A stretch of DNA of 64,000 nucleotides from a virus (IMGVR_UViG_3300028920_000041:1-64000); one strand, 5' to 3'. Counted from the stretch's first letter, positions 31,285 through 55,357 are shown. The notes: a model not told the origin generated them from the sequence alone. Numbers and translations are program-made.

Positions 31285-31358
31285 GCCTCCATAGGCCAAC
31301 TGGCAGAGCCATGACACTTAAAATGTCAAAAGTCTGGGTTCGAATCCCAGTGGAGGCA
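31285..31358 (+). tRNA. trnL: tRNA-Leu, anticodon TAA, short variable arm, CCA not encoded
   Basis: Acceptor GCCTCCA/TGGAGGC, D-arm GGC..GCC, anticodon arm TGACA-CTTAAAA-TGTCA, T-arm CTGGG-TTCGAAT-CCCAG, discriminator A. Confidence 0.93.
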
Positions 31359-40005: not shown

Positions 40006-40098
40006 TGTCAAGACGTAGTTTCCCCCCGGTGGAACCGCGCTGTTTCGTGACTTTTGGATCTGATTCACTATGTAACGGACAATAACAAGGAGAAACAA

Positions 40099-40524
40099 AT
40101 GGGATTCAAGCGAATGAACGAAGTTGGACCCGGTGGCTACTCTGGACCCGAGAAGGTACTGAGAGATGAAAAGAAGAAGAAGAAGCCAAAGTTCGGCAAG
40201 ATCACAACCAAGAACACGAGCGATGATGAAATCTCTGTAAAGGCTCCAGCTGGGAGCATGATGGCAGACAAGCTTGACAATACGGATTTCCAAAAGGAGA
40301 TCAAAGGCGTCAAGACTTCCAAGAAGTATCCAAAGAAAGCACAAGCAAAGAGAGCGTTCCTTGCAGGCCTCATCCATAAGATGACTGGCAAGAGCGAGTC
40401 CTCGGATACAGCTAACGAGATGATTGATTTGGTACTCGAAGGCTATGATCCGTTTGACATCGTCGAGAAGTTCCCGTTCAAGAAAAAGAAGTGCAAGGAC
40501 GACGAAGAAGACGATGACGAGTAG
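40099..40524 (+). CDS. charged putative prohead core/internal protein (motif A)
   Basis: AAGGAG RBS; EMIDLVLEGYDPFDIVE; K-rich then acidic tail KKKKCKDDEEDDDE. Confidence 0.6.
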   Translation: MGFKRMNEVGPGGYSGPEKVLRDEKKKKKPKFGKITTKNTSDDEISVKAPAGSMMADKLDNTDFQKEIKGVKTSKKYPKKAQAKRAFLAGLIHKMTGKSESSDTANEMIDLVLEGYDPFDIVEKFPFKKKKCKDDEEDDDE

Positions 40525-40561
40525 GTCATAACGATAACCCACAAACACAGCACATAGCCCA

Positions 40562-41440
40562 ATGACAAAAAACGCATCGAATAGCAGAGCAAGAAACCCG
40601 CCCAAAGAATCTGTAGCAACCAGGCTCGTTGAATCAGCCACACAAGGAACACTTCCAGCCGATTTAATCAAGTCTATGATCTACCAGGGTAAGTTTAACG
40701 ATGACCACAAAGAGCATCACTATAAGCTAACTGAAGGTGAAGCCGCTTTCAAGCTCAACACACCGGAAGAGATGACACAGGTTGAAGAGCTTATAACGAA
40801 CTTGTCAGCGGCACAAATACCCTATACTCTTTCAGACGATGAAGACACAAGAGAAGTAGTCTTGTCATGGAAAGAAGAGTACACAGATCAAATTGAATCC
40901 ACGATGGAAGCTCTTGGTATCGAAGTCTACGATGATGACAGTCAAACAGAGTCACTTATAGAGACTTCCATTTTCAAACCGCAAGGCGAAATCAAGAACA
41001 CAAAACCACCATACAAGAGAAAGCCGACCGGTTACTTGCAGAGACTCTCAAAGAAGACACAATCCACGCATGCAAGAGGCCTGCAGCCAGAGACACCAAT
41101 AGAGCCGATGGTATCGGCTATGGAGCAATCAATGAACGTAAAAGAGATGATCGACAGTGTTATCAACGGTGAGTCTGTAAAGCACTTGGTAGGCTCTTTC
41201 TGTGAATCTGATAAGCCTTGGTTGAAGAAACTAAAGAGTCTTGGATGGGATCCGACTCCTGTAGAGGTTAAGCAAGCTCTTTCTACCTATAAATCGCTCA
41301 ATAAGAAGTATGGGGCGCAGAGGGCAGCAGTTGAAGTGTTTGGAGGTGTAAAGAACAAACTTCGTAGAGCAGAGATGGCAAATGTTCTACGAAAAGAACT
41401 TGGCTTAGATCCAGTGGAGTTGCCTAAGCCTCTTAGGTAG
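40562..41440 (+). CDS. putative internal head protein (motif A)
   Basis: ESVATRLVES; EMIDSVINGESVKHLV. Confidence 0.55.
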   Translation: MTKNASNSRARNPPKESVATRLVESATQGTLPADLIKSMIYQGKFNDDHKEHHYKLTEGEAAFKLNTPEEMTQVEELITNLSAAQIPYTLSDDEDTREVVLSWKEEYTDQIESTMEALGIEVYDDDSQTESLIETSIFKPQGEIKNTKPPYKRKPTGYLQRLSKKTQSTHARGLQPETPIEPMVSAMEQSMNVKEMIDSVINGESVKHLVGSFCESDKPWLKKLKSLGWDPTPVEVKQALSTYKSLNKKYGAQRAAVEVFGGVKNKLRRAEMANVLRKELGLDPVELPKPLR

Positions 41441-41471
41441 GGATATAGTAATCTATCCAAGGAGCAAGCAA

Positions 41472-41909
41472 ATGGATTGGTCACCAAATAGCTCAAAGAG
41501 AAGACTGCTGGAAGCCTGCGAGTCAAGAGGCATTGATGCTTCAATGACTATGGTCAAAGCTGAGCTGATTGCTTTGCTGACAGCTCACGACATAGAAGCC
41601 GACATAGAAGCCGATCAAGGCCCACCAGAGCCACCTGCAGAGCCCACACAGCTGCCACCCCTTCCCCCTATCCCCAAGTTCGAGCCGACTCCTAAACCGG
41701 CCCCACAGGCCACGCCAGAGCCACCACAGGCCACGCCAGAGCAAGGTGGAGTCCTGGATTACCTCGCAGCGGCAGAAGAGAAGGTATCCCTGAAACACCT
41801 TGTCAAAGACCTTGGCAGTGAAGTGATCGAAGAACTCAGAGAGCTAGTAAAAGCCAACAAAGTAACTCAGTACAAACAGCACAACAATTTTTGGTACAAG
41901 GCTAGGTAA
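41472..41909 (+). CDS. two-domain DNA-binding protein: SAP/HeH-like N-terminus, Pro-rich linker, winged helix
   Basis: LLEACESRGIDASMTMVKAELIALL; linker with 21-bp and 12-bp tandem repeats; VLDYL...VSLKHL...LRELVKANKV...WYKA. Confidence 0.55.
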   Translation: MDWSPNSSKRRLLEACESRGIDASMTMVKAELIALLTAHDIEADIEADQGPPEPPAEPTQLPPLPPIPKFEPTPKPAPQATPEPPQATPEQGGVLDYLAAAEEKVSLKHLVKDLGSEVIEELRELVKANKVTQYKQHNNFWYKAR

Positions 41910-41920
41910 TAGTCCACTAG

Positions 41921-42562
41921 ATGACACCCGAGCTAATCACACCAAAGCCGATCATATTCATACACATACCAAGAACTGGAGGTATGTCTTTCCGTAAGAT
42001 GATGCACATTGCTTACGGCTATGACAACATAGGTAGGCCATGGTGGGGTGAGCATGAAGGCGAGTACATAAACGATAAGCAGAAGTCTAAGAAAGCTTGG
42101 TATGGTCACTTCAAGTTTGGACTACATGAGCAGATACCTTTTCCAGTCAAATACTTCACTATAGTAAGAGAGCCAGCAGCTAGGTTGCTATCTGAGTATC
42201 ATAGAAACGAGTACAGGACTCGATATAACATGAGTCCATTGGACTTGGCTAGATCTGACAGAGGCAATAACATCATGGTTCGTATGCTATCAGGTGCGAA
42301 CATGACAGACACTCTAACGATACACCATGTAGATATCGCTATGGCCAACATAGAAGAGCACTTCGTTTTCGTTGGCCAGACAGAGAAGTTTTCTGACATT
42401 ATGCGAGTAGTAAAGCGCATGGGTTGGCCTGTATCGAAACAGCCTCATGAGAACACCGGTAAGACAGAAACGATAACACTGAATGAGTTGATAGATCTAA
42501 GGAAGCTACCAGAGCTTGCCTTGGACTATGAACTATACAGGAGGGTTGCCTATGCCTGGTAG
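41921..42562 (+). CDS. sulfotransferase family protein (Sulfotransfer_2-like)
   Basis: FIHIPRTGGMS (5'-PSB loop), FTIVREPAARLLSEY (3'-PB), NIMVRMLSG, FVFVGQTE. Confidence 0.8.
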   Translation: MTPELITPKPIIFIHIPRTGGMSFRKMMHIAYGYDNIGRPWWGEHEGEYINDKQKSKKAWYGHFKFGLHEQIPFPVKYFTIVREPAARLLSEYHRNEYRTRYNMSPLDLARSDRGNNIMVRMLSGANMTDTLTIHHVDIAMANIEEHFVFVGQTEKFSDIMRVVKRMGWPVSKQPHENTGKTETITLNELIDLRKLPELALDYELYRRVAYAW

Positions 42563-43100
42563 AGTAGAGTCCATTCGACAAGTACTAAGGTCTACGTTAC
42601 TGGAGTCAACACAAGATTTTTCGAAGATGTCTAAGGATCAGCTAAAGGATGCACGTCAGATGTATCAAGACGTTATTTCCATGAATAAATCCAAGGGAAG
42701 GCCTATAAAGCAGTACTACCTTGATAATTTGAGTAGTATTGAGGCTCTTCTTTCAGGCAAGCCTAGTGGTCAAGGTGTTACTAGCGATCCTTCAGTGTTT
42801 GGGCATCCACAGCAAACTAGCCATCCTAAGTATAGAAACTTGGTTCCTGTCAAAGTAAAAACCAAGGCACAGGTTCAGAAGTTCATAGACAAAGCACAGA
42901 AGTCTTATGATTCAATAATGACTAAATGGTCTAAGGAAGAGGCTATTGCTTTAGGTAGAATCAAGGCAACACCGACACGAAGAGCTAAAGCCAAGAGAGC
43001 TATCAAGTCAAGAGACTGGATTGATCTGAAAAGCTATGCAGAGCTTATCAGAGATGAGACAATGAAAGAGCTTCAGAGGCTTTACAAGTTGGCGGGATAA
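42552..43100 (+). CDS. basic putative virion cargo protein (motif B leader)
   Basis: MPGRVESIRQVLRSTLLE leader. Confidence 0.65.
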   Translation: MPGRVESIRQVLRSTLLESTQDFSKMSKDQLKDARQMYQDVISMNKSKGRPIKQYYLDNLSSIEALLSGKPSGQGVTSDPSVFGHPQQTSHPKYRNLVPVKVKTKAQVQKFIDKAQKSYDSIMTKWSKEEAIALGRIKATPTRRAKAKRAIKSRDWIDLKSYAELIRDETMKELQRLYKLAG

Positions 43101-43112
43101 AGAGAGAGACCT

Positions 43113-43703
43113 ATGCCTGGTAAAGTAGAGTCCATTCGACAAGTACTCAGAGAGTCCCTTTTGAAAGAAGCCAATGATTGGGATGGTCGTTCTACAATGT
43201 TTGGACACCTTCCAAGCCAAGATCTATACTTCTCTCCAGTTGAGAAGCTAAAAAACGGTAACTACAAGGGCTATATGGTTGATGTGAGTTCGGGCCGACC
43301 AAAGAAGGCCAAACAGACCAGTATGAACAAGCGTTGGTGGTCAGAGTCCTGGAAGATAATCAGTCAAAGCGAAGTTCCAAAAACGGTGCTTAGCAAGTTT
43401 TCAGACAAAATCGAATTACAAGCGCAGAAGGCCAGCGAACCAAAGGCAGCACCAACACCTGTTAATGTTAAGTCACCGGACAAGCTCTTGACGCAGAGAC
43501 AAGCCAGGGTAGGGCTCAGAGTAGATACAGATCCAGAGAGTGAAAGCAGTAGTTGGGTGATTCGGCGTATGACAAACAAGTCTGTTACCATTGGCTCTGA
43601 TAGTGGGGTTGACGTTGGACCAAAGTTTGCTGGAAGGACATTCATGTATCGTTGGGACGGTACAGGGTTTGTTAGACAAAAACAGTACCTCTATGCGGTG
43701 TGA
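43113..43703 (+). CDS. putative virion cargo protein (motif B leader)
   Basis: MPGKVESIRQVLRESLLKE leader; first 38 nt nearly identical to the previous gene. Confidence 0.65.
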   Translation: MPGKVESIRQVLRESLLKEANDWDGRSTMFGHLPSQDLYFSPVEKLKNGNYKGYMVDVSSGRPKKAKQTSMNKRWWSESWKIISQSEVPKTVLSKFSDKIELQAQKASEPKAAPTPVNVKSPDKLLTQRQARVGLRVDTDPESESSSWVIRRMTNKSVTIGSDSGVDVGPKFAGRTFMYRWDGTGFVRQKQYLYAV

Positions 43704-44497
43704 CGATGCCTGATACGGTTCAAGAGTCCATTAGAGACTCTCTGAGAGCAACGCTACTTGAGGGAAGACCTGTCCCTATCAAGAAAGCCTATCTGAAAAG
43801 GCTAGCTAGGTCTCTATTTGATGAAATGTACAAAAGGTGGCTCAAACCATTTCACTTAAAGAAGCGGGATCGACCAACCAGTATATTGTTCATTGGGAGT
43901 AAAGATGGGATCCCAAGTCACCATACTATAGAGTTTACAGAGTTAGCTGGCCCCTGGAAGGGTCGCAAGAGGCAAGTTCCCATTGTCTTCCAGTTAGGAG
44001 GAACAGGGAATTTTGTAAGAAAGTACATCACAGGTGGCGGTGTCTATAGTGTGAGGCAGGGTAAACGTAGTGTTTCTAAGTACATGATCTATCTTAATAT
44101 AGCTGATACTCTTATTCTGGATTTTGTCAAGAACAAGAAACAAGTTATAGATGAGTTTTACTCTGTTTTGATACACGAAGCAACACACCTAGCAGATCAA
44201 CTCCCTAGAGTTGCTTCTGATGCAGATAACGAAGACCTAAAAATCTACTACAATAAGCCAACAGAAGTCAGAGCGTTCATGCAGCAGATTGTTGATGAAG
44301 TAGTTGCACACGCTAGGTCCATAGCGAAAGACCTTGAAGGCTTCACTGACACAGAACAGCTTGTCAGATTGTCTCTTGAGCGAAGCACGACATGGGACAG
44401 AGTCAGACCCTACGTCAACCCAAGCAACAAAAGGAAGATACTGAAAGCTGTTCATGGAGTCATAGACAGAGCCAATCTTCCAGCTAGGTATGAGTGA
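43700..44497 (+). CDS. zincin-like metallopeptidase with motif B leader
   Basis: VQESIRDSLRATLLEG leader; VLIHEATHLAD (HExxH); YYNKPTEVRAF. Confidence 0.7.
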   Translation: MTMPDTVQESIRDSLRATLLEGRPVPIKKAYLKRLARSLFDEMYKRWLKPFHLKKRDRPTSILFIGSKDGIPSHHTIEFTELAGPWKGRKRQVPIVFQLGGTGNFVRKYITGGGVYSVRQGKRSVSKYMIYLNIADTLILDFVKNKKQVIDEFYSVLIHEATHLADQLPRVASDADNEDLKIYYNKPTEVRAFMQQIVDEVVAHARSIAKDLEGFTDTEQLVRLSLERSTTWDRVRPYVNPSNKRKILKAVHGVIDRANLPARYE

Positions 44498-47400
44498 TGC
44501 CTGACAGAGATAAGTGGATCTATGGTAAGGGCCAGTCAAAGTCCACTGGACTCTATAAAGACGTAACGTATGCCTCAAAAGGCAGTCAACCTCACTCTAC
44601 TACTCCAGATGACTGGCCATGGTCCAAAGAAGCCAAAAAGAAGTATGGTAAGAACATAGCATTCAACAAGCCATTGCCTGAAGTGTCAGACGATGAAGAT
44701 GTTGAAGCATGGTTCAAGCGTGTTGAAAAAGAACGCAAAGAACGAGAGAGACGCTATAAGCGTGAAGTCAAGTTAGGCACAGAATGGAAGACAAGAAACC
44801 TTGACTGGATCGCAGTCCTGCCTGATGCAAGTCACCCGGGCAAGGTCCGTATACAGCGCTATGATGAAGATGGCTTCTCAGGACATACTACGTTTGACAA
44901 TCTACAGAAGCTAGTGGCCTATCTCATTGAATGGGAAACATCACTAAAGAAGGCCAACGGCACTATGGACAAGTTCAGCAAGACAGCCCGATGGAAACGA
45001 GGCATGAAAAGACTAGCAGCGTTTCACACCAAAGAGTCTAGTGTTGAAGATCTTGTTGATAGGATAGACCAGTTACTTGAGAGAGCGGCGCGAATAAAGC
45101 CTATCCTTATGTTCCATGGTACGGCTTCCAAGAATCTTCGTTCAATACTCAAAAAAGGCTTTGTGCCGAATCCTAAAGAAAGGGTTTGGCAAGATGATCC
45201 AAATGCGGCACAGTCCTACCAGACAGTTACTAGAAAGACTGTAGGAGGTACCTATTTCTCTACTAACTTAAACGTAGCTACATCATCAGCATTAACAGCA
45301 GCACAAAAGTCCAAATCAGAGCAGTTGGTTATTGTTGCCAAGATACAGCCGAGAAGTGGTTATGCTGATGAAGACGACATTATTCATGATGCAAAACGCG
45401 GTATGAAGAAAGCCATGTTTCCATCTGGCCACATAGGGCATGAGGAAGCCTGGCCGCGGCGGTGGATAGAATTTGTTACGAGTCCGGGTGAAGCAAAGAA
45501 AGCTATCCAGAAGTTTGCTAAAGAGTTCAAGGTAGGTCTTGAGGCAGATCTACCTCAAGTAAAAAAGATACCCTTAGCTCCAAAAGCAGTAGAAGATATG
45601 TTTTGGGGTCTTTTAGAGCAAGTTGTAGCAAAGTGGTACTCGTATAACAAAAAGATGCCGTATGGTGCAGACTACTACGCAGCTACTAAGAGACTGAATC
45701 TCAGTAGAGAGCAAGAGCACAAGTACTATGCGTTGGTCTTGAAAAGGCTAAAGAGAGTCAGTTTGCAGAAGGCAGAAAAGCGCTACCTTAGTGCTGCAGA
45801 TAAGCTAACCAGACAGTTAAGCAAGTTAGCTATACCGAAGCCAGATGCTTTTAGAACGAATGTGAGGATCACAGACCCTGTCAACTTCAGGGGTAAGAAC
45901 AAGATTATTGCTGTGTTTGAGATGCGTAGTGGTGAGGACTATAAAGAAGATATCAAAGTCCACTATGGTAAGATCCCTTCAGAGGTAAAGAGCGCTCTTA
46001 ACCAGAATCTTGGGGACTGGCGTGAGGTTGATAAGTTTGAAACGTCTAGTTGGTGGACTAAGGCAAATAATGAGTCTGCTATGACTTTTTCAGATCCAAA
46101 GACGACACAAGAAAAGAAAGCTCTGAAGATGAACCGAAAGAAGTCAGAACAACAGCTCATCTCGAAGATTCAGAGCTTCATAGGTGACACTAATGAGGAA
46201 ACTCGACATAATACTAGGGTTCATGTTCGCTATGATAACAGCAGCACTGATCTACATAATCATGTCACTGAACTAGCAATAGGCAAGTTCAACTGGAAGC
46301 CTCTAAGAGATACGCCTATCGGTCCAGTCAAAGGCTATGAAGCAACCGGTTCGCTAAAGGGTAGGGCGAAGATTGAAAAGCGAAAAGTTGGAAGAGCACA
46401 GCGCTGGTTTTTGGTGTTGGATGGTAAGGACTATCCAATGCCTGGCAAGAAAGCGTCACTGGACCATGCCGAAGGGACTATAAAGAAAATGCTAGAATCA
46501 ACAGCCCTAGATCTTATTGAGCAAGTCATTCAAGGCGAAAGTCCATCGGAGTTGATTGAAAAGGTCAGCTACGCTTATGACATTCGACTTGACCAGAACA
46601 TACGAACTGGACCCGTGGTAAAGCTCACTAGCGGTCATTTCGGCGTAGCGAGTGCTCACAACTACGCCACAGAGTATGTGTGCGAAGCTAAGAAGGTCAA
46701 AGCAGTATGGTCGAAAGGTGCTACCAGAGCTTCTATAAGAAAGTGGCCTTTGACTGGCCGTAAAGCAGACCAATACAAAGATGGTACTTGGGCATGGGTA
46801 ACAAAGCTTGTCGATAATTGGAGTTCATCCAGTACGCGAAGACCTAAGCTTGTGATCAATGTTTTGGTATGGGACATGGATGGTAAACCTGTGCATAAAA
46901 AGCTTGGGCAGGAATTCACAGCGAAGGACTTAAAGGCAGCAAAGAGCTATGCAAAGAAGCTTATAGAGGATGGATTGTCTAGAATGACTAGTGTTGAGGG
47001 TAGGGTTATTATGCCTTATGAAGAAGATCAAATTGTTAATTTTGGGACTTTCGAACCTGCTAGGTCGTATGGGGAGGCGTTGAACGAAGTACGTAAGAAG
47101 CGAACACCATTCTATCAGATGGGTAAGGATGCTTTTGAGTCAGGTGTCAAGAGTCCAGCACCTATACTCAATAAGAAGGTGTTTGGTAAGATCTCAAAGA
47201 TAAAGTCAGACAAAGAACGTATGAAAGCAATGAAGGACTATCAAGATGGATGGCAACAAGCCAACCTAGATTCTCCACTTTCAGAGTCTATTGATGAAGC
47301 TAAGGGTAAGAAGCGCAAGGTTGGTGGTAGAATGGAGTATGCTCTAAGAGCTGCAGCAGATCATGGTATTACTGCCGGTGGTTCTTTTGCTTCATTTTCC

Positions 47401-47511
47401 TTGTTTCACAAAATGAGGGAAGCAGAGCTTATACATCCTCCAGGTTCAGGAGCTTGGAAGATCACAGATAAAGGTAAGCAAGCGCTCAAAGATGGGTTCT
47501 ACTACGCTTGA
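44494..47511 (+). CDS. 1005-aa multidomain protein containing an ADP-ribosyltransferase-fold (HGT...YFS) domain
   Basis: LMFHGTASKNLRSILKKGF...GGTYFSTNLNVA...LVIVAKI; internal motif B (DLVDRIDQLLE) and motif A (DLIEQVIQGESPSELIE). Confidence 0.65.
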   Translation: MMPDRDKWIYGKGQSKSTGLYKDVTYASKGSQPHSTTPDDWPWSKEAKKKYGKNIAFNKPLPEVSDDEDVEAWFKRVEKERKERERRYKREVKLGTEWKTRNLDWIAVLPDASHPGKVRIQRYDEDGFSGHTTFDNLQKLVAYLIEWETSLKKANGTMDKFSKTARWKRGMKRLAAFHTKESSVEDLVDRIDQLLERAARIKPILMFHGTASKNLRSILKKGFVPNPKERVWQDDPNAAQSYQTVTRKTVGGTYFSTNLNVATSSALTAAQKSKSEQLVIVAKIQPRSGYADEDDIIHDAKRGMKKAMFPSGHIGHEEAWPRRWIEFVTSPGEAKKAIQKFAKEFKVGLEADLPQVKKIPLAPKAVEDMFWGLLEQVVAKWYSYNKKMPYGADYYAATKRLNLSREQEHKYYALVLKRLKRVSLQKAEKRYLSAADKLTRQLSKLAIPKPDAFRTNVRITDPVNFRGKNKIIAVFEMRSGEDYKEDIKVHYGKIPSEVKSALNQNLGDWREVDKFETSSWWTKANNESAMTFSDPKTTQEKKALKMNRKKSEQQLISKIQSFIGDTNEETRHNTRVHVRYDNSSTDLHNHVTELAIGKFNWKPLRDTPIGPVKGYEATGSLKGRAKIEKRKVGRAQRWFLVLDGKDYPMPGKKASLDHAEGTIKKMLESTALDLIEQVIQGESPSELIEKVSYAYDIRLDQNIRTGPVVKLTSGHFGVASAHNYATEYVCEAKKVKAVWSKGATRASIRKWPLTGRKADQYKDGTWAWVTKLVDNWSSSSTRRPKLVINVLVWDMDGKPVHKKLGQEFTAKDLKAAKSYAKKLIEDGLSRMTSVEGRVIMPYEEDQIVNFGTFEPARSYGEALNEVRKKRTPFYQMGKDAFESGVKSPAPILNKKVFGKISKIKSDKERMKAMKDYQDGWQQANLDSPLSESIDEAKGKKRKVGGRMEYALRAAADHGITAGGSFASFSLFHKMREAELIHPPGSGAWKITDKGKQALKDGFYYA

Positions 47512-47526
47512 TATGGAGTTAGTAAC

Positions 47527-48621
47527 ATGACTCTTGCCAGTGATTTGATTGAAGCTGTCTTGAACGAGATTCCTGCATCTATTGTCTTAGGCTCCATTTG
47601 TGAAGTAGCCCATCAAGATGAGTTTTCCAAGATAGCTTTCAGGTTGGTCAAGTCTAACAAAGGCAACTGGAAGAGTGAAAAGCAAGCTCTGTTCTTGCTC
47701 GACAGTGCCACTGGTTTTAGCAAAAGACTTCTAGCACACGAGTCCGGGCTAGCGAAAGATTGGCTCAAAAAGAAAGGCTACAAAACAGACAATCTAGTAG
47801 CTTTAGCGTGGGCAAAACAGCTCAAAGGCTATGGTACGAGAGATCCAAGCAAGGTCCGTTACTCAGGTACTATTGTGGCCTTTGATGAGGTTGGTGTAGT
47901 ACTGATTGGTACTGTCAAAGTCATTCACCAAAAGCAGGGTGTGAAGCAGCAAAAAGGCTCAAGCCTAGATTTCAGCCGAGTCACTGTCAAGTATGAGAGA
48001 CCCAAGAGCCATAAGCCTACCGTTGTTATCAACTACTACAACAGACCCGTGGACTCAAAGACCATTGAAGTCATCAAGGGCATACCTGGCTATCAGAACC
48101 ACAGAATTCTGGTTAGCTTCCTTGATCAGCTAAACGACCATAAGAAGCTCTCACCAAAGCAGATGGTTGTCTTGAACAAGTTCTTACCGGAGCCGAAAGA
48201 CACCGGCATAGGGACCAAACAAGATCTACAGAAGGAACTAGAGACATTCTTCCAGTTGATACGAACCAAGTGTGTGCCTGTTGTCGTGGAAGGTGCTAAG
48301 GAGTTCGGTTGGAAGATCACAGAGGCTGATATTTCAAAGGACTGGACAAGCTTTGAGAAGGGAGCTAAGTATGATTTTTCTTCATCGGTGAAGCATGTTC
48401 AGACGTTGATTGTTCGTCTCTTTGAGAATGCTAGTGGTAGGCCAAAGAAGCTCTACAGTCAGACTTTCCTTCACGACACGAGAGACAGAGTCAAACGTGC
48501 TATCAAGATGAAGACACCAGGCAAGAGTCACGTTGAAGCCATTGCTGATATGCGATGGCTGAATAAAGCCTTAGAGAGGGTATCTGTGTCTAAGATACGA
48601 ACAGCGATGCAGCTTGATTAA
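47527..48621 (+). CDS. putative virion cargo protein (motif A leader)
   Basis: SDLIEAVLNEIPASIVLGSICE; SFLDQL...KLSPKQ motif. Confidence 0.6.
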   Translation: MTLASDLIEAVLNEIPASIVLGSICEVAHQDEFSKIAFRLVKSNKGNWKSEKQALFLLDSATGFSKRLLAHESGLAKDWLKKKGYKTDNLVALAWAKQLKGYGTRDPSKVRYSGTIVAFDEVGVVLIGTVKVIHQKQGVKQQKGSSLDFSRVTVKYERPKSHKPTVVINYYNRPVDSKTIEVIKGIPGYQNHRILVSFLDQLNDHKKLSPKQMVVLNKFLPEPKDTGIGTKQDLQKELETFFQLIRTKCVPVVVEGAKEFGWKITEADISKDWTSFEKGAKYDFSSSVKHVQTLIVRLFENASGRPKKLYSQTFLHDTRDRVKRAIKMKTPGKSHVEAIADMRWLNKALERVSVSKIRTAMQLD

Positions 48622-48632
48622 CGGAGAGACCT

Positions 48633-48977
48633 ATGGACTTGGTAGATCGCATCCAAGAGTTCTTAGAGGAAGACTTGAGGACTCTTTTCCCAAAAAGACA
48701 GTTCAAAGGATGGAAGTCAAGCAAGAGCAAAAAAGACTTCATTTGGTACACCAAAGGAGATTATGTCTTCAGGCTCGAAGATGATGGTAATGCTGTGTCT
48801 ATCTTTTTGCAGTGGCCTGCATCGTTAGGTGATAGATTCGTTCCATCCGGCCGTAGTTGGATGGCAAGCAAGTCTGGCAACAAGTACTCTTTGTCTACTG
48901 ACTCCGATGAAGAGACTTGGAGTGATGATGTAGCTACCTTGAAAAAGATCATGAAACTGTTTATCTCCAAGGCGTAA
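48633..48977 (+). CDS. small putative cargo protein (motif B leader)
   Basis: MDLVDRIQEFLEE; GGAG RBS. Confidence 0.6.
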   Translation: MDLVDRIQEFLEEDLRTLFPKRQFKGWKSSKSKKDFIWYTKGDYVFRLEDDGNAVSIFLQWPASLGDRFVPSGRSWMASKSGNKYSLSTDSDEETWSDDVATLKKIMKLFISKA

Positions 48978-48983
48978 TCAAAG

Positions 48984-49337
48984 ATGAGAGTATCTGCAAA
49001 ACTGCATCAGTCAATCCAGGCTCTAGGTCTTATGCTAGAGTTGAATCGAGTAGCACAGTCAAGGTCGTTTGATGAAGCGAAGCAGCAATTAGCAGATCTA
49101 AAGAGCAAGGCTAAGCAGAACTTCAAAGAGCTATCGCTAAAGCATCATCCCGATGTTGGTGGTGATGAAGAAACCATGAAGCTACTATCTGCAGCGTATG
49201 ACGAGATCAAGAAAGTTGACATAAAACAAGCACAGCCAAGGCCTGTTGCTCAAGTGGTTCGTGTTTATTGTGGTGGTGTGTACTCAACAACTAGCACTTG
49301 GCCCACAGGCAGCACAACCTCAACAAGCGGTTGGTGA
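48984..49337 (+). CDS. J-domain (DnaJ-like) protein
   Basis: AKQNFKELSLKHHPDVGGDEETMKLLSAAYDEI (HPD motif). Confidence 0.85.
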   Translation: MRVSAKLHQSIQALGLMLELNRVAQSRSFDEAKQQLADLKSKAKQNFKELSLKHHPDVGGDEETMKLLSAAYDEIKKVDIKQAQPRPVAQVVRVYCGGVYSTTSTWPTGSTTSTSGW

Positions 49338-49341
49338 TCTT

Positions 49342-50877: not shown

Positions 50878-50975
50878 TTCTGGTAAGCGCTACTCTTGCA
50901 AGTCCTCTTCGTAGAGTAGATCCATGCCCAAGGCTTTAATGGTTTTTTTAATGGTTTTCCTTGTTCCATGAGTCG

Positions 50976-51365
50976 TTACCTCTCAACTCCAGTAACTATG
51001 ACACGTTCAGAATCAAGTATGAACTCAACATTGTCAGGTTTTGAGTAAGCTTTTTGAAACAGAGAGAAATCAATTCGGTTCATGTACTGGTGATCTCTTA
51101 GTGGAACACAGATGTAAACTTTACTATCACGAGATTCTTTCCAACCCTGGAGTAATTGGTATAGCTTTAGCACATTTTCGTTGCTCCAGTTGTCGTCGAT
51201 GTCAATATGTGCTGTCTTCCCGTGGCATTTATAGAGTAGTTTATACCCCTGTATATCAGAGTCCTTCCATGAGACATAGTACATAGTTACTTTGTTGGAA
51301 TCCGGATGGTCCACTGAGACTTCTTCCCAGATCACTACGAAGTTTCTCATGATGTCTTTAGACAT
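50976..51365 (-). CDS. hypothetical protein
   Basis: AGAGGT RBS on the minus strand; 129 aa. Confidence 0.65.
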   Translation of the reverse strand: MSKDIMRNFVVIWEEVSVDHPDSNKVTMYYVSWKDSDIQGYKLLYKCHGKTAHIDIDDNWSNENVLKLYQLLQGWKESRDSKVYICVPLRDHQYMNRIDFSLFQKAYSKPDNVEFILDSERVIVTGVER

Positions 51366-51531
51366 TTACCTCTACCTCTCAATTCGGTTGTCAAAGAACA
51401 GAATATCGGGCAGGGTCTTACCACGAATCATGGCAAGCGTCAACTTGGCAGGAATGGCTTGGATTGACGGAACTAGAGTGTGCTCCTGACACGGAGCCGA
51501 GGAAGGAATGAGTGTGTGTGGTTAGCAGAGT

Positions 51532-52014
51532 CTAGGGCACAGAATCGCCATGCTCCGCTGCAAGCTTTCCAGAGACTAAGTCTTGCCCCCATGAGCACGG
51601 ACAAGGATGGCCTTCCAGATCGTCACCTCGAATCAATCCGGTGTTCTCGCATCGGTGACAATTCGGCCGGGGAACTTGGCCAAGCTTGCTACAGCCGGTG
51701 ATGCGTCCCTTGTCGTCCCTGACAAGTCCTGCAGGGAAAACAAGGTCACGCCTTTCAGGCACGGCATTAGCAACCATCTGTGAAACGATGAGCCAGACTC
51801 CAGGTTGTGGTTCAGGTAGACCGGTCACCCGGCCAGGCCTCTGCAGGACCAGCGGGACAGGAAGCTCAAGGCTTCCCACGACCCTCACAGGCTCTTCGAG
51901 CATGGAGACCCGGGGCAGTGCCCCACAAGGCTCCAGGATGGCTGTGGTGGCGCTGTCAGACGCCACCAGATTGATGGTATGGGGTGTGCAGTTCTTGATT
52001 GTGGTGTGTTCCAT
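51532..52014 (-). CDS. conserved phage hypothetical protein (NxTPH...GLP...VRD...GC family) with C-terminal zinc finger
   Basis: IKNCTPHTINL, VTGLPEPQPGVWLIVS, DLVFPAGLVRDDKGRITGC, then CHRC...CPC. Confidence 0.75.
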   Translation of the reverse strand: MEHTTIKNCTPHTINLVASDSATTAILEPCGALPRVSMLEEPVRVVGSLELPVPLVLQRPGRVTGLPEPQPGVWLIVSQMVANAVPERRDLVFPAGLVRDDKGRITGCSKLGQVPRPNCHRCENTGLIRGDDLEGHPCPCSWGQDLVSGKLAAEHGDSVP

Positions 52015-52098
52015 GCCGACCTAGACGACATGAGACAGGCCAATTTGACAGGTGCCTGAAAAATAATTTCCAAGTAGCTCAGAGAGAGAGAGAGTCCG

Positions 52099-52836
52099 AT
52101 GATTCAAGAGAGCACACTTGACGTATTCAAGAAACTCGTTTTGACAGAGGCTGCTACGAGACTAAAGAAGATGCCTCCTAACACGAAGATCTATGCGGAT
52201 GCTCTTCACTGGTCATCTTGGGATGGCAAGCTGTCAATGGTCCATGGTCCTAGCTACTACAACACACAGAACAGTGCTTCTAAAGAATGGTTTGATCCTG
52301 CTTTGATGGCTAGAAAGTACATCGTACAGTTTGCCGTTGACAGCAATGGTAAGAGGTTGGCCCCACCTTCACAAGCCGTTATTGGTGGCAACATTGTGGT
52401 GAGAGATAGACGGTTACCTTATCACAAAACAACATGGTCCATGGGAACACCAAACTATGGACCAGTTATCACAGGATCGTTTGAGCCTAAACAATATGAG
52501 TACTTAGTGTTGGTAAAGTTGAAAGAGCTTGGTAAAGCTGAAGTAGGTATGGTTACAGATCTATATGACTCCTATGGGTACCTTGATGTTTCCGGGTATC
52601 CAAAGCTAAAGACTAAACAAGCTAACTGGAAAAAGCTTTTCACTAAGCGCAAGTTTGCAGACACTCAAAACCTGGATTCAGACTTAGCTAATGTTGCTGA
52701 TGCACTTATTCACATGAAAAACTCTTTCAGGTACGCAGATGATGAGACGCATGAACAGATCTTATGGGATGCTATCCAGGGTGTTTATAGCACAAACAAA
52801 AAAGGCGATAAGATTTCTTTTATCATAAAGAAGTGA
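52099..52836 (+). CDS. putative cargo protein (motif B-like leader)
   Basis: MIQESTLDVFKKLVLTEA. Confidence 0.6.
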   Translation: MIQESTLDVFKKLVLTEAATRLKKMPPNTKIYADALHWSSWDGKLSMVHGPSYYNTQNSASKEWFDPALMARKYIVQFAVDSNGKRLAPPSQAVIGGNIVVRDRRLPYHKTTWSMGTPNYGPVITGSFEPKQYEYLVLVKLKELGKAEVGMVTDLYDSYGYLDVSGYPKLKTKQANWKKLFTKRKFADTQNLDSDLANVADALIHMKNSFRYADDETHEQILWDAIQGVYSTNKKGDKISFIIKK

Positions 52837-52842
52837 GTAACC

Positions 52843-53169
52843 ATGCCCAAGATAGACAAAAAGAAAGCTAAGAAGGTCTACAACAAGTTGATGATGTCAG
52901 CGGCTTCTCTTAGCCCAGCGATGGTAGATCAAATTAGGCTCTTGTATTCTCTACTGTCCGGCCAAGTCGAAGACACAAGAAAGAGCTATCTTGTGAGGGT
53001 ACTCAGCGGCGAAGAGCCTGCAGACCTAATCAATGAGCTGACTACGTCTGCAAATAGCCTTGCAACCAAGATACCCAAGCCAATGGGTATGATCAAAAAG
53101 ACTCGAAAGAAAGACAAAATCATCAAACCAGCCGAGGCGAAGAAGCTTGGGCTAGACTTGAATGGATAA
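52843..53169 (+). CDS. basic putative head protein (motif A)
   Basis: LVRVLSGEEPADLINE. Confidence 0.6.
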   Translation: MPKIDKKKAKKVYNKLMMSAASLSPAMVDQIRLLYSLLSGQVEDTRKSYLVRVLSGEEPADLINELTTSANSLATKIPKPMGMIKKTRKKDKIIKPAEAKKLGLDLNG

Positions 53170-53172
53170 CAA

Positions 53173-53418
53173 ATGACGCCAGAACAGAGACGAACCGGGA
53201 ACATCGCAGCACTATATGGGTACAAGGTTCATGAAGACACGGTAGCTGCTGAATCATTTTCTCCAGGTGATGGTGCTATCGTTTTGACAGCAAAAGGTGA
53301 GCCTGTGATGTCAGGTACCATAGAAGAGGTCAAACCTGGTAACGATATGATGGCAGCTTCAATCAAGATAGGTGATATGTGGTACTATGAAGGACAATAC
53401 AAATTCAGAGATCTGTAA
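53173..53418 (+). CDS. small SH3-like protein
   Basis: FSPGDGAIV...SGTIEEV...IKIGDMWY. Confidence 0.55.
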   Translation: MTPEQRRTGNIAALYGYKVHEDTVAAESFSPGDGAIVLTAKGEPVMSGTIEEVKPGNDMMAASIKIGDMWYYEGQYKFRDL

Positions 53419-53421
53419 TTC

Positions 53422-53691
53422 ATGACGACAAGTACAAAGCTAATTGATTTACGTGTTTCTGGGACATCTGCTAAGTACTTGGTAGACGCTTTGTTAGAAG
53501 AGCTTCCCCCTCCGGATGTGATCAAAAGAACCATTCTTAGGGACCTTCCAAAGAGCCTGGTTATTGTTAAAGAGGATGTTGTCTACATAGAATGCAGCGA
53601 TCGACAACTGCTAGCCTCAACACTCCCGCTCTTTGAACATATGTATCCTGAACTTGACTTTGTCAACTTAAACAAGACAGACAAAAGATAA
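53422..53691 (+). CDS. small putative head protein (motif A-like)
   Basis: YLVDALLEELPPPDVI. Confidence 0.55.
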   Translation: MTTSTKLIDLRVSGTSAKYLVDALLEELPPPDVIKRTILRDLPKSLVIVKEDVVYIECSDRQLLASTLPLFEHMYPELDFVNLNKTDKR

Positions 53692-54581
53692 TGGAGAGAA
53701 TCATGCAAGACAGAATGTCCCTGATCGAAGAGCAAGTAGAAGGTTTGATTGATCTCGTTCTGGACGGGGAAGATGCGAATGACTTGATGGAAGGTGTGTA
53801 TAGTGAGATTAACGAGGGTCCTGGTAACGGTCCTTATCACATCGGCTCTAAGGTCAAAGTCAATACAGGTTGGTCCGGGCAAGGAATCGATGGAAGCAAC
53901 GTCAATGTGTCCAAGGGCGACGTTGTCTCTGTTGTCTTGGCTAACTTAGGTGAGGAAGGCCAGGATCGTATGGTCCTCTTAGCAGACGGTAAGACCCGTG
54001 TAGTGGTTCCGTTTGCTATCTTGGGTGAAGGCCTCGAAGAGCAGAGCATGATGCATGGCCCAAAGGGACATGTTGTTAAATCTGCCAAAGGCAAGCTAGG
54101 TGGTATGGTCCAAGGCAGAGCACAGGGTGATGCGACAACTCCTGAACAGAGCATGTTAAAGCCAATTCCGGGCACTCGTAAGCCAAGCTCTCTGCAGTCC
54201 AAATCCATTGGTAAAGCAAAGCCAAAGGGTGACCCAACAGCCCAGATGCAAGGCCAGATGGTACCTTCTACTATCTCTGGAAAGACAGTAGAGCAAGTAG
54301 TGGATGAAGTTCTTTCCAGGTTTGAAGAAATCAGTGAAAAAGACGCTAGTGCACAGTCGCTAAGCGAAATGTTGGTTTCTGAAGATGATGAGATCATGTA
54401 TGCCATTATGCATGAGGCTCTCTTTGGTGAAGGTGAGTGCACACTAGATACTCTGCAGGGACTTGCAGAGATGATGAAAGACAAAAAGAAGAAGAACAAG
54501 AAAGACGATGACGAAGAAGGATACACTGAAGAAGACATTGACGAGATCTTCAGTGCTATGCACGAAGCATCGATGAGTTAA
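53691..54581 (+). CDS. acidic putative scaffold/prohead core protein (motif A)
   Basis: GLIDLVLDGEDANDLME; many x-x-E junctions; KDKKKKNKKDDDEE tail like that of the 40099 protein. Confidence 0.6.
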   Translation: MERIMQDRMSLIEEQVEGLIDLVLDGEDANDLMEGVYSEINEGPGNGPYHIGSKVKVNTGWSGQGIDGSNVNVSKGDVVSVVLANLGEEGQDRMVLLADGKTRVVVPFAILGEGLEEQSMMHGPKGHVVKSAKGKLGGMVQGRAQGDATTPEQSMLKPIPGTRKPSSLQSKSIGKAKPKGDPTAQMQGQMVPSTISGKTVEQVVDEVLSRFEEISEKDASAQSLSEMLVSEDDEIMYAIMHEALFGEGECTLDTLQGLAEMMKDKKKKNKKDDDEEGYTEEDIDEIFSAMHEASMS

Positions 54582-54650: not shown

Positions 54651-55271
54651 ATGAGCGCAGTTCATCAGGGTTTTGGTGCCGCACTTGAAAACGCTGCAAC
54701 AGAGATTATGAGGATCGGGGAAGCCAAGGGACCGATTACTTTGTCCGTGAAACACGTGGATGAAGATGGTGGTCTTTTGGTTGTTCAGGTATCTCGTAAG
54801 AGTGACGGGGCATTGGTAGCGCTTGCCGAGGAAACAGCCGTTACCGATGAAGATACGGCATATGACGGCGATGCTTCGGAACTGGTCTTTACGGGTCAGG
54901 CTCTTGACAACACGCCTATCGTTCCAGGCTCAGTGACGATCAAGCCTACTGCAGGTGGTAACACCGTTAACCTGGTTGACACCAATGCAGATGGTATTCT
55001 GTACACTGATGACGTTGATGCAGACGTGGCCGGGAGTGTTAACTACTTCACTGGTGATCTTGAGCTGTCTTTCCCGAGTGGCAAAGACCCGGCTGCTACG
55101 AACATCTTGGCTGACTACAGCTATGGTGTTGGTGTTAACGTGCTCGGTACCAGGAATTTCCAGATCCAGTACTTCTCTGCAGCGGTTGACTTTGAGACGC
55201 TGATTGTCAAGGCGGCTGCAGCATCTAGTTCCAGGGTTCGTATTGAGGCCTATCAGTCAACGGTCGGCTAA
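54651..55271 (+). CDS. putative virion structural protein
   Basis: NTPIVPGSVTI...GILY...GSVNYFTGDLELSF, a beta module seen in sheath/baseplate proteins; AAAAGGAG RBS. Confidence 0.6.
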   Translation: MSAVHQGFGAALENAATEIMRIGEAKGPITLSVKHVDEDGGLLVVQVSRKSDGALVALAEETAVTDEDTAYDGDASELVFTGQALDNTPIVPGSVTIKPTAGGNTVNLVDTNADGILYTDDVDADVAGSVNYFTGDLELSFPSGKDPAATNILADYSYGVGVNVLGTRNFQIQYFSAAVDFETLIVKAAAASSSRVRIEAYQSTVG

Positions 55272-55284
55272 CAGGTAGGTTTTT

Positions 55285-55346
55285 GGCACCGTAGGGGGTG
55301 ATTTGGAGCATGCTTCCCTGTGCGATCACCCCCTACGGTACCTTTT
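55285..55346 (+). terminator. long-stem hairpin, probable terminator or processing site
   Basis: ACCGTAGGGGGTGAT/ATCACCCCCTACGGT perfect 15-bp stem, 22-nt loop, T-runs on both sides. Confidence 0.7.
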
Positions 55347-55357
55347 AGGACAATCAA

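What the first reader, a model, noticed from the sequence alone, without database searches (positions are those of the whole stretch)
40099..54581. Cluster of about 14 unrelated proteins sharing two Glu-terminated helical leader motifs: candidate capsid-targeting and maturation code for virion cargo
Seen: motif A (LI[DE]xV[LI]xGExxxx[LI][IVM]E) occurs in 40099 (EMIDLVLEGYDPFDIVE), 40562 (EMIDSVINGESVKHLV), 44494 (DLIEQVIQGESPSELIE), 47527 (DLIEAVLNEIPASIVL), 52843 (LVRVLSGEEPADLINE) and 53691 (GLIDLVLDGEDANDLME), and weakly in 49342 and 53422. Motif B occurs in 42552 (VESIRQVLRSTLLE), 43113 (VESIRQVLRESLLKE), 43700 (QESIRDSLRATLLE), 48633 (DLVDRIQEFLEE), 44494 (DLVDRIDQLLE) and 52099 (ESTLDVFKKLVLTE). 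The rest of each protein differs. Established: T4 internal proteins and Alt carry a capsid-targeting propeptide removed after Glu by prohead protease gp21, and phiKZ head proteins are also cleaved after Glu. Inference: these motifs load diverse payloads into the prohead and mark cleavage sites, making a modular injected arsenal with its own address code.
Basis: partly seen in the sequence, partly recalled or inferred. Interest (0 to 1): 0.88.

Follow-up and report, generated by a model that had tools for sequence, protein, structure and literature searches.

The report
Shared address tags on phage cargo
A large uncultured phage puts the same short peptide tags on a dozen otherwise unrelated proteins, most likely to load them into its capsid as phage T4 does with its internal proteins. 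The principle is known; this tag and its reach are new.

Summary
The window is the first 64 kb of a 121-kb phage record with a T4-type prohead protease (S77) and gp23-like capsid gene at 71-74 kb. Motif A is real. It is a ~17-residue helix-turn-helix, h-I-[DE]-x-V-L-x-G-x-x-P-x-x-L-h-[ED]. It has 9 clean copies among 155 ORFs: 7 at 40-54.6 kb and 2 just upstream of the protease. Each passes leave-one-out tests. Only three adjacent genes (42552, 43113, 43706) share a proven leader, and two of them share 39 of 41 nt. T4 ipII/ipIII have the same architecture. Comparative data support a capsid-address role. Homologues of the 43706 body have other N-termini or almost none, and that body starts right after the leader's L-L-E. 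An ART-fold enzyme family carries T4-CTS-like leaders, motif A or nothing at one position. A second phage lineage has N-terminal motif A on at least seven genes, five with bodies unrelated to one another, and on a protamine-like protein beside its S77 protease. Relatives of the 1005-aa protein keep the end modules but swap payloads (Tad3, GNAT, PARP-like). Packaging and cleavage are not shown. Motif A is often internal or C-terminal. Other first-stage notes of this scan flagged the same motifs in overlapping windows of this genome. Verdict: a new variant of the T4 CTS/internal-protein principle.

The parts
40417..40467 (+). Motif A copy near the C-terminus of the 156-aa lysine/acid-rich protein (ORF 40054-40524, residues 122-138). 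It ends in I-V-E, the only [LI]-x-E in the protein.
41144..41194 (+). Motif A copy inside the 292-aa protein (ORF 40562-41440, residues 195-211).
42552..42605 (+). Leader B, 18 aa ending L-L-E, at the N-terminus of the protein 42552-43100. The start ATG at 42552 lies behind GGAGG.
43113..43169 (+). Leader B, 19 aa ending L-K-E, at the N-terminus of the protein 43113-43703. Its DNA matches 42549-42589 at 39 of 41 positions.
43706..43762 (+). Leader B, 19 aa ending L-L-E, at the N-terminus of the HExxH-containing protein 43706-44497. The conserved body (A/G-R-P-V-P-I...) begins at the next residue.
44494..47511 (+). 1005-aa modular protein. It has a conserved N-module (aa 1-64), a variable slot, an ART-fold core (aa ~197-515), a motif A module (aa 667-730), a further domain (aa ~720-861) and an Mrr_N-like C-terminus.
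45049..45081 (+). Helix ending L-L-E (aa 186-196) directly in front of the ART-fold core. It corresponds to the N-terminal leaders of stand-alone homologues. It is weakly similar to the N-terminus of 48633.
45082..46038 (+). ART-fold (PARP/Tpt1/DarT-like) enzyme core with conserved H-G-T, Y and an invariant D-E-D acidic triplet (D109-E110-D111, within consensus A-D-E-D).
46510..46560 (+). Motif A copy (aa 673-689, ending L-I-E) at a domain junction of the 1005-aa protein. It is the start of a ~60-aa module that sits at the C-terminus of relatives P0008, P0009 and P0142 and near it in P0031.
47542..47604 (+). Motif A at the N-terminus of the 364-aa protein 47527-48621 (aa 6-22, then invariant C-E at 25-26). 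It is kept in four orthologues at 83-53% identity.
48633..48671 (+). 13-aa N-terminal helix of the 114-aa protein, with the protein's only two [LI]-x-E sites. It is a candidate leader of a further type; the similarity is marginal.
52099..52149 (+). 17-aa N-terminal helix ending L-T-E of the 245-aa protein. Its resemblance to genome 68234 is not significant.
52987..53037 (+). Motif A copy in the middle of the basic 108-aa protein (ORF 52843-53169, aa 49-65). It ends I-N-E, the only [LI]-x-E in the protein.
53476..53526 (+). Motif A copy near the N-terminus of the 89-aa protein (ORF 53422-53691, aa 19-35). It was not in the training set.
53742..53792 (+). Motif A copy near the N-terminus of the acidic 296-aa protein (ORF 53691-54581, aa 18-34, ending L-M-E). 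The protein has 11 [LI]-x-E sites and a Lys-then-acid C-terminal tail like 40054.

Best explanation
The motifs are portable prohead-core address modules of a phage with a T4-type head.

INFERRED MECHANISM. A short amphipathic helix (leader B and similar) or a helix-turn-helix (motif A) binds the scaffolding core. Here the core is probably the long coiled-coil C-terminal half of the protease itself plus the small proteins encoded upstream of it. The tagged protein is therefore enclosed when the gp23-like shell forms. The S77 protease then cuts after Glu in [LI]-x-E at or just behind the tag. This frees the payload from the core, as in T4 IPI-III and Alt.

LIKELY ROLES OF THE CARRIERS.
- Some are probably core or scaffold proteins that are degraded: the acidic 40054 and 53691, and genome 67915.
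- One is a protamine-like DNA-condensing protein (genome 70423).
- The rest are enzymes and anti-defence domains that would be ejected with the DNA: the ART-fold enzyme, the HExxH protein, and Tad3 and GNAT in relatives.

WHAT IS SHOWN. The motifs exist. They are confined to two loci. Their attachment to bodies is modular and swappable. They are linked to S77-protease head modules in three lineages.

WHAT IS INFERRED. Binding to the core, packaging, cleavage and ejection.
For: 1. CONFINEMENT. The nine motif A copies lie only at 40-54.6 kb and at 67.9-69.9 kb, upstream of the protease (70938-72437) and MCP (72427-73902). There are none in 104 other ORFs.

2. SAME TAG IN HEAD MODULES OF RELATIVES.
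- L009 (protease 55% identical) has N-terminal motif A on a 99-aa protein.
- L009 also has it on a 105-aa protein whose remainder is Arg/Lys-rich. Both genes lie upstream of the protease.
- L096 (protease 41% identical, E 1e-41) has motif A plus a basic tail one gene before its protease.

3. MODULARITY.
- The three leader-B bodies are unrelated.
- In the 43706 family the body starts at a conserved A-R-P-[VI]-P-I. Leader B abuts it only in close relatives; distant homologues have other N-termini or almost none.
- In L088 the 47527 body carries a different leader, shared with its neighbour.
- Two L096 proteins share only their first 27 aa (E 6e-8).

4. ONE POSITION, INTERCHANGEABLE LEADERS. I examined 108 stand-alone homologues of the ART-fold core.
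- 78 have [LI]-x-E in the short stretch before the H-G-T strand. Equal windows from their own bodies give a mean of 21.8 and a maximum of 35.
- In 58 of the 78 the Glu lies 7-10 residues before the core. It is followed by A, R or K in 65 of the 78.
- Many of the leaders look like the T4 CTS by eye (not counted).
- Four carry motif A instead, at 10-14 bits.

5. T4 PRECEDENT REPRODUCED. T4 ipII and ipIII are adjacent, with 44 identical nt covering the RBS and an 11-residue identical N-terminus, which includes the 10-residue CTS. The window pair 42549/43110 is identical at 39 of 41 nt. T4 gp21 cuts L/I-x-E, and 10-19-aa CTS propeptides target proteins to the core (PMC9026906, PMC5694885).

6. SELECTION AT PROTEIN LEVEL. 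Motif A is conserved as protein, not DNA. Identical residues often use different codons.

7. L-x-E KEPT. It is retained at the end of all 7 copies of the 667-730 module despite a one-residue indel.

8. PAYLOAD TYPES FIT EJECTED PROTEINS. The payloads are an ART fold (T4 Alt is a packaged ART) and Tad3, which binds ThsB (PMC13728456).
Against: - There is no proteomic or experimental datum for this phage or any close relative. The nearest cultured phages share only ~36% MCP identity.
- Five of nine motif A copies in this genome are internal or C-terminal, unlike the T4 CTS.
- [LI]-x-E is not depleted outside the motifs: 30 observed against 27 expected.
- The enrichment inside the motifs is partly definitional. 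In the ART family the L-x-E helix could be a structural part of the domain (AF2 models it as helix 2-15, pLDDT 75-84).
- Position 17 of motif A is Asp almost as often as Glu. In T4 an Asp blocks processing (PMC9026906).
- Similarity of motif A to T4 gp67, gp22 or the CTS is not statistically detectable.
- The AF2 model of the 47527 family was poor (pLDDT 52), so it gives no structural support.
- The record is only ~57% complete, so the distribution over the whole genome is unknown.
Confidence: 0.6

Rival explanations
1. Motif A is a general docking or oligomerisation module that has nothing to do with the capsid. It would tie the proteins to one another, or to a phage or host hub protein in the cytoplasm, for instance a host-takeover complex or the neighbouring J-domain protein.
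For: - The motif occurs at N-termini, C-termini and domain junctions, as docking modules do.
- The cluster contains a J-domain protein (48984-49337; weak PHROG matches, and the H-P-D motif seen directly in the translation), a sulfotransferase and enzymes typical of host takeover.
- There is no evidence of cleavage.
Against: - It does not explain why tagged genes sit directly upstream of the prohead protease in three lineages.
- It does not explain why one carrier is a protamine-like basic protein.
- It does not explain why the same position in the ART family is otherwise filled by leaders that, by eye, resemble the T4 CTS and end in L-x-E.
Confidence: 0.2
2. The shared stretches are evolutionary or nucleic-acid-level leftovers. 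They would be remnants of duplicated genes whose bodies diverged, or conserved 5' cassettes (RBS plus first codons) that serve translation control or act as recombination joints. There would be no targeting role for the peptide.
For: - Leader B is conserved at the DNA level from 3 nt before the ATG (39 of 41 nt).
- A GAGAGA..CCTATG context recurs before 43113, 48633 and 52099 (family D9).
- The three leader-B genes are adjacent.
Against: - Motif A is conserved only as protein, with synonymous differences, and also at internal and C-terminal sites.
- The bodies have stand-alone homologues without the leader, so they are not diverged paralogues.
- Motif A is kept across lineages whose proteases are only 41-55% identical.
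Confidence: 0.12
3. Chance. The motifs are ordinary amphipathic helices picked out by eye.
For:
- A baseplate-hub protein in an unrelated locus reaches 9.1 bits with the motif A profile.
Against: - Leave-one-out recovery of all six motif A copies, with 0-6 of 3100 shuffles as good.
- Three untrained copies were found.
- There is a clean gap between 17 bits and 4.2 bits within the genome.
- Leader B scores 41-45 bits.
Confidence: 0.03

Closest known systems
T4 capsid targeting sequence (CTS) of internal proteins IPI-III and Alt, removed by prohead protease gp21
   Same: - A short helical leader is shared by otherwise unrelated proteins.
- Adjacent genes have DNA-identical leader cassettes (T4 ipII/ipIII; window 42549/43110).
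- The leader ends in L/I-x-E.
- The phage has a gp21-family S77 protease and a gp23-like MCP.
- The payloads include an ART-fold enzyme, as Alt is, and basic DNA-associated proteins.
- The payload set varies between related phages.
   Different: - Motif A is longer (~17-20 aa, helix-turn-helix) and has no detectable sequence similarity to the T4 CTS.
- It also occurs internally and at C-termini.
- At least three or four leader types coexist in one genome.
- The carriers are many (10-13 in the window, more beside the protease) and large (up to 1005 aa, multi-domain).
- The protease is fused to a ~300-aa coiled-coil tail, and no separate gp22 gene lies between it and the MCP.
- Nothing has been tested experimentally.
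Long N-terminal propeptides of phiKZ / 201phi2-1 / SPN3US head and ejection proteins (PMC5694885, PMC10052503)
   Same: - A large phage with many internal head proteins.
- Paralogous or conserved N-terminal segments are proposed to target proteins to the prohead.
- A related protease cleaves after Glu, with multiple sites per propeptide.
   Different: - Those proteases use S/A/G-x-E or A-x-E. The sites here look like T4-type [LI]-x-E.
- Those propeptides are 80-270 aa, not a discrete 17-aa motif.
- No similarity to phiKZ-group proteins came up in any search here; none was targeted at them.
P1 Dar system: DarB N-terminal capsid targeting signal (PMC9024508)
   Same: An N-terminal signal of 30 aa or less suffices to load a large anti-restriction enzyme and a reporter into the capsid. 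The cargo is an anti-defence protein delivered with the DNA.
   Different: P1 loads its cargo in a stepwise dependency chain of Dar proteins. It has no shared motif on many proteins and no known removal by an S77 protease.
T4 gp67 prohead core protein
   Same: - It is a small protein encoded next to the protease.
- Its N-terminus M-E-x-L-I-[ED]-A-[IV]-K-[SN]-[GN]-D resembles the first helix of motif A. This is clearest against genome 67915 and L009 5098.
- Its acidic C-terminal tail is like those of 40054 and 53691.
   Different: The resemblance covers ~10 residues and scores at most 2.7 bits with the motif A profile. BLASTP does not align it. No carrier matches the gp67 PHROG.

Membership tests
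T4-type CTS-bearing internal head proteins | A short leader shared by proteins whose remaining sequence is unrelated | tested here: met
   - Leader B on 42552, 43113 and 43706 scores 41-45 bits, with bodies at BLASTP E > 5.
- Motif A is on 9 proteins with no other pairwise similarity.
- The L096 pair shares only 27 aa.
T4-type CTS-bearing internal head proteins | The leader lies at the extreme N-terminus (10-19 aa) | tested here: inconclusive
   - Met for leader B (18-19 aa).
- Met for motif A in 47527, 53422, 53691, genome 67915, L009, L007 and L095/L096.
- Not met for 40054, 40562, 44494, 52843 and genome 69319, where the motif is internal or C-terminal.
T4-type CTS-bearing internal head proteins | The leader ends in the gp21 recognition motif L/I-x-E | tested here: met
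   - Present at or within 9 residues of the motif end in 13 of 17 candidate leaders.
- It is the only such site in 40054, 42552, 52843 and 67915.
- It is kept in 7 of 7 copies of the 667-730 module and in the leader-B orthologues.
- This is sequence evidence only; cleavage was not tested.
T4-type CTS-bearing internal head proteins | The phage encodes a gp21-family prohead protease and a gp23-type capsid | tested here: met
   - PF03420 Peptidase_S77 at 63.8 bits, over its cut-off, at genome 71055-71507.
- phrog_207 E 1e-46 and phrog_138.
- MCP tblastn matches to T4-like capsid genes.
T4-type CTS-bearing internal head proteins | Sequence similarity to the T4 CTS or to T4 core proteins | tested here: not met
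   - The motif A profile scores at most 2.4 bits on T4 gp67, gp68, gp21, gp22, gp23 and gp24.
- It scores at most 2.7 bits on five gp67 homologues.
- BLASTP finds no N-terminal alignment.
- The carriers match no head PHROG.
T4-type CTS-bearing internal head proteins | The protein is present in proheads or virions, and the leader is removed during maturation | not testable with these tools
   This needs virion mass spectrometry or N-terminal sequencing. No cultured close relative exists.
ADP-ribosyltransferase fold (payload of 44494-47511, aa ~197-515) | ART core fold with H-Y-E-type conserved residues | tested here: met
   - The AF2 model has pLDDT 91.4 and pTM 0.87.
- The best VIA matches are TreX, pertussis S1, DarT1, KptA, Scabin and Arr at Z 4.9-6.2. 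This is a middling score, but they are 8 of the top 10.
- Foldseek matches PARP1/Tpt1 at probability 0.9 but E 0.09-0.3.
- Pfam PARP is over its cut-off in relatives P0007, P0009 and P0022 and sub-threshold in the window protein.
- H25-G26-T27 are nearly invariant; Y71 and E110 are invariant.
- Catalysis was not tested.
T4 gp67 prohead core protein | Profile match to the gp67 family (phrog_1064) | tested here: not met
   T4 gp67 matches phrog_1064 at E 2e-30. Neither genome 67915 nor any other carrier does.

The most novel reading that the evidence does not exclude
Motif A is a portable capsid-address module used across a wide, uncultured clade of phages with a protease-scaffold fusion and a T4-type shell. 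It would work at either end of a protein and, inside fusion proteins, would mark where the protease cuts a polyprotein into separate ejected effectors. If so, the packaged and injected arsenal of such phages could be read directly from sequence. That arsenal would include pre-made anti-defence proteins such as Tad3 (an inhibitor of the Thoeris sensor ThsB) and ART-fold enzymes. The tag could also be used to load foreign proteins.
Probability: 0.35. Interest if true: 0.8.

Novelty: new variant of a known kind. Interest (0 to 1): 0.66.

Why it matters
Capsid-packaged proteins act before any phage gene is expressed. They are therefore the first line against host defences, yet they are known from only a few model phages (T4, P1, the phiKZ group). 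A recognisable address tag would have three uses:

- It would let the ejected proteome of uncultured phages be predicted from sequence.
- It would point to new anti-defence payloads. Here these are an ART-fold family with hundreds of metagenomic members, plus Tad3 and GNAT fusions in relatives.
- It would offer a second, longer targeting module for protein delivery by engineered phages.

The result also shows that the T4 'hyperplastic internal-protein' principle extends far beyond the T-even phages, with several leader types coexisting in one genome.

Tried and rejected
- Depletion of [LI]-x-E outside the motifs, as a footprint of protease exposure: not seen (30 observed, 27 expected).
- T4-type late promoter TATAAATA: absent from the + strand of the whole record (two minus-strand hits only), so none precedes the cluster or head genes. 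Sigma-70 and terminator scans gave nothing above shuffles, so there is no co-expression evidence.
- Link of genome 67039 to leader B, the 52099/68234 pair and 49342 to motif A: not above shuffled controls.
- Motif-A-like strings in the gene after the protease of marine T4-like loci (3.6-6.9 bits): within natural noise, since an unrelated baseplate hub scores 9.1. The genes are not annotated as scaffold.
- Homology of motif A to T4 gp67: only a ~10-residue resemblance.
- AF2 of the 47527 family from 5 sequences: pLDDT 52, unusable for a fold search. It only suggests helix 3-12, turn, helix 17-24 over the motif.
- Protein Atlas on genome 69319: no informative hit.
- Close relatives of the cluster: none by megablast in cultured phages or in IMG/VR with the 1005-aa or 364-aa proteins. 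The metagenome scan gave one 2.4-kb contig.
The contigs of orthologues P0002, P0005, P0157 and P0158 could therefore not be read.
- Alignment A3 was too divergent for the search for related loci.
- PHROG and Pfam gave no function for most carriers.

Full report
CONTEXT. The window is bases 1-64000 of a 120,930-bp IMG/VR virus record, which CheckV estimates to be ~57% complete.
- Bases 1-38 kb hold replication and recombination genes: DNA polymerase, UvsX-like recombinase, SbcCD-like nuclease and ligase, followed by many small ORFs.
- Outside the window lie a Peptidase_S77 (T4 gp21 family) prohead protease at genome 70938-72437 (63.8 bits, over the Pfam cut-off; phrog_207 E 1e-46) and, overlapping its end, a gp23-like major capsid gene at 72427-73902.
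- The best cultured matches to the MCP reach only ~36% identity (Listeria phage LIS04 and Bacillus phage SP-15, genus Thornevirus). More than a thousand T4-like phages follow.
- The protease is 499 aa. Its last ~300 aa are helical and rich in [LI]-x-E (14 sites). No separate scaffold gene lies between protease and MCP.
- Most proteins at 40-54.6 kb have no PHROG or Pfam match.

IS MOTIF A REAL? Yes.
These are 53422-53691 in the window, and genome 67915-68223 and 69319-69912 just upstream of the protease.
- In leave-one-out tests every held-out copy scored 3.3-12.7 bits, and only 0-6 of 3100 composition-matched shuffled proteins did as well.
- With nine copies in the profile all score at least 17 bits. 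The next real protein of the 155 ORFs scores 4.2, and the best of 3100 shuffles 9.1.
- The consensus from 20 copies here and in relatives is A-x-x-[LM]-[IV]-[ED]-x-V-[LI]-x-G-x-[SPD]-[PVA]-x-x-[VAL]-h-[ED]. The poor AF2 model of the 47527 family places a helix, a turn and a second helix over it.
- Conservation is at the protein level. Identical residues are often encoded by different codons, and no DNA repeat covers the copies.
- No copy lies in the 61 ORFs before 38 kb or the 43 ORFs after 74 kb.
- Weak copies occur in genome 66604 and 70423. Their L009 orthologues carry clearer versions.

IS MOTIF B REAL? Only in part.
- The three adjacent genes starting at 42552, 43113 and 43706 share an 18-19-residue N-terminal leader (41-45 bits against a best shuffle of 7.7). 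Their bodies show no similarity (E > 5).
- The first two are identical at 39 of 41 nt, from 3 nt before the ATG.
The pair 48633 and 44494 (position 186) is marginal. 52099 is not above noise. Genome 67039, which I had noticed as a look-alike, is not recovered by a profile of the three.
- So there are at least three leader types, not two.

COMPARISON WITH T4, DONE WITH TOOLS. T4 ipIII and ipII are adjacent. They share 44 identical nucleotides covering the RBS and an 11-residue identical N-terminus (the CTS is its first 10 residues), and diverge completely afterwards. This is the arrangement of 42549/43110. The literature held here states three things:
- T4 gp21 cuts after Glu in L/I-x-E.
- The 10-19-residue N-terminal propeptides of the IPs and Alt target them to the scaffolding core.
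- The IP set varies between T-even phages while the CTS is kept (PMC9026906, PMC3012670, PMC5694885).

MODULARITY: THE STRONGEST EVIDENCE.

(a) The 43706 family (N-termini).
- The conserved body begins A-R-P-[VI]-P-I in ten homologues.
- In this phage and its two close relatives (81% and 57% identity) leader B, ending L-L-E or L-S-E, directly abuts that residue.
- In distant homologues the N-terminus is different or only 7-9 residues long.

(b) The 47527 family.
- Four orthologues (83-53% identity) keep motif A and an invariant C-E at its end.
- A 29%-identical homologue on metagenome contig L088 has an unrelated N-terminus instead. The next, different gene shares that N-terminus.

(c) The 1005-aa protein.
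- Exhaustive search shows it is a chain of modules that occur separately elsewhere.
- Relatives P0007, P0008, P0009, P0031 and P0142 keep the N-module (aa 1-64). They also keep a ~60-aa module that starts with motif A (aa 667-730). That module is at the C-terminus of three of them, and P0008 has a second copy of motif A.
- What lies between is exchanged: a Tad3 domain (43-48 bits, cut-off 27), a GNAT acetyltransferase, or the PARP/Tpt1-like core.
- L-x-E at the end of motif A is kept in all seven copies although one residue is inserted in some.

(d) The core at aa ~197-515.
- It folds with high confidence (pLDDT 91.4). Its best structural matches are ADP-ribosyltransferases: TreX, pertussis S1, DarT1, KptA, Scabin and Arr at Z 4.9-6.2, and Foldseek PARP1/Tpt1 at probability ~0.9.
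- It has hundreds of ~310-aa stand-alone homologues, almost none in cultured phages.
- Of 108 with 8-60 residues in front of the H-G-T strand, 78 carry [LI]-x-E there. Equal-length windows from their own bodies give a mean of 21.8 and a maximum of 35 in 500 draws.
- The Glu lies 7-10 residues before the core in 58 of the 78, and is followed by A, R or K in 65.
- Many of these leaders resemble the T4 CTS by eye (not counted). Four carry motif A instead (10-14 bits), and a few start directly at the core.
- In the window protein the same position is filled by the helix at aa 186-196 ending L-L-E.

A SECOND LINEAGE. Contigs L095 and L096 were found with one of the motif-A-bearing ART homologues.
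- In the two overlapping contigs at least seven genes carry motif A near the N-terminus, five of them with bodies unrelated to one another.
- Two of these proteins share only their first 27 residues (E 6e-8).
- A 111-aa protein made of motif A plus an Arg/Lys-rich tail sits one gene upstream of an S77 protease. That protease is 41% identical to the one here over 214 residues (E 1e-41).
- The same protamine-like protein with N-terminal motif A lies upstream of the protease in L009 (protease 55% identical), separated from it by one small ORF. It corresponds to genome 70423-70737 here.
- A basic DNA-binding protein with an acidic removable leader, encoded beside the protease, is what an internal head protein should look like.

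WHAT SPEAKS AGAINST THE READING, OR LIMITS IT.
- No experiment or proteome exists.
- Half of the motif A copies in this genome are internal or C-terminal, so motif A is a portable module rather than a classical leader. T4 Alt is processed at both ends (PMC9026906), and phiKZ-type propeptides are long (PMC5694885), so this does not exclude a head role.
- [LI]-x-E is not depleted in the presumed mature parts.
- Position 17 of motif A is Asp nearly as often as Glu.
- In the ART family the L-x-E helix could be structural.
- Similarity to T4 gp67 is suggestive: an N-terminal M-E-x-L-I-[ED]-A-[IV]..G-D, an acidic tail and a position beside the protease. It is not significant.
- Some carriers (40054, 53691) are acidic, with many cleavage-type sites and Lys-then-acid tails. 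They may be core or scaffold components rather than cargo.

VERDICT.
- The best explanation is a T4-like capsid-addressing and maturation system with new tag sequences (confidence about 0.6). The main rival is a docking module unrelated to the capsid (about 0.2).
- It is a new variant of a known kind. The new elements are the helix-turn-helix tag, its use at either end and at junctions of multi-domain proteins, the coexistence of several leader types, its spread over at least three uncultured lineages, and the payloads it appears to carry.
- First-stage notes from overlapping windows of this genome had flagged the same motifs. I tested their claims independently, and I had found the copies upstream of the protease before reading those notes.

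Noticed in passing
L088:112-1299 and L088:1340-2362: A distant homologue of the 47527 body and its unrelated neighbour share a different ~10-residue N-terminus (M-K-[IL]-S-[ST]-F-L-N-[ST]-L). This looks like another lineage-specific leader type.
   Followed up: partly
window 23480-26800 and genome 111239-114049: Two large proteins share a 229-aa stretch (42% identity, E 3e-30) that begins with Cys and contains an HNH-like part. Both genes probably hold inteins, and the first has a weak terminase match.
   Followed up: no
window 39815-40011: An A/C-rich degenerate repeat array (units of ~19-21 nt, ACACAAAC..ATCAAC) lies directly upstream of the first gene of the cluster. The 148-aa 'ORF' 39604-40050 over it is probably not a gene.
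   Followed up: partly
window 31285-31358: tRNA-Leu (anticodon TAA), the only tRNA in the window.
   Followed up: no
window 55272-55357 and genome 73903-74010: Long G+C-rich hairpins follow the 206-aa gene 54651-55271 and the MCP gene. The 206-aa protein of unknown function may be an abundantly made structural protein.
   Followed up: no
genome 70938-72437: The S77 protease carries a ~300-aa helical C-terminal extension with many [LI]-x-E sites, and the MCP gene overlaps its end. This is a likely protease-scaffold fusion that replaces a separate gp22.
   Followed up: partly
window 43096-43115, 48616-48635, 52082-52101: A shared GAGAGA(G)NCC(T/G)ATG context lies in front of three genes that start with short helical leaders.
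   Followed up: no
window 50976-52014 (minus strand): Two genes on the opposite strand interrupt the cluster. One matches PHROGs of unknown function at E 8e-18.
   Followed up: no
window 38543-39172, 41921-42562, 48984-49337: Untagged neighbours are a vWA-like protein (seen in the sequence; it matches only PHROGs of unknown function), a galactose-3-O-sulfotransferase-like protein and a J-domain protein (H-P-D).
   Followed up: no
P0009, P0031, P0142 (relatives of window 44494-47511): A near-identical Tad3 (ThsB-binding anti-Thoeris) domain sits in the variable slot of three relatives. The window protein has a different domain there, shared with P0008 and P0020.
   Followed up: partly
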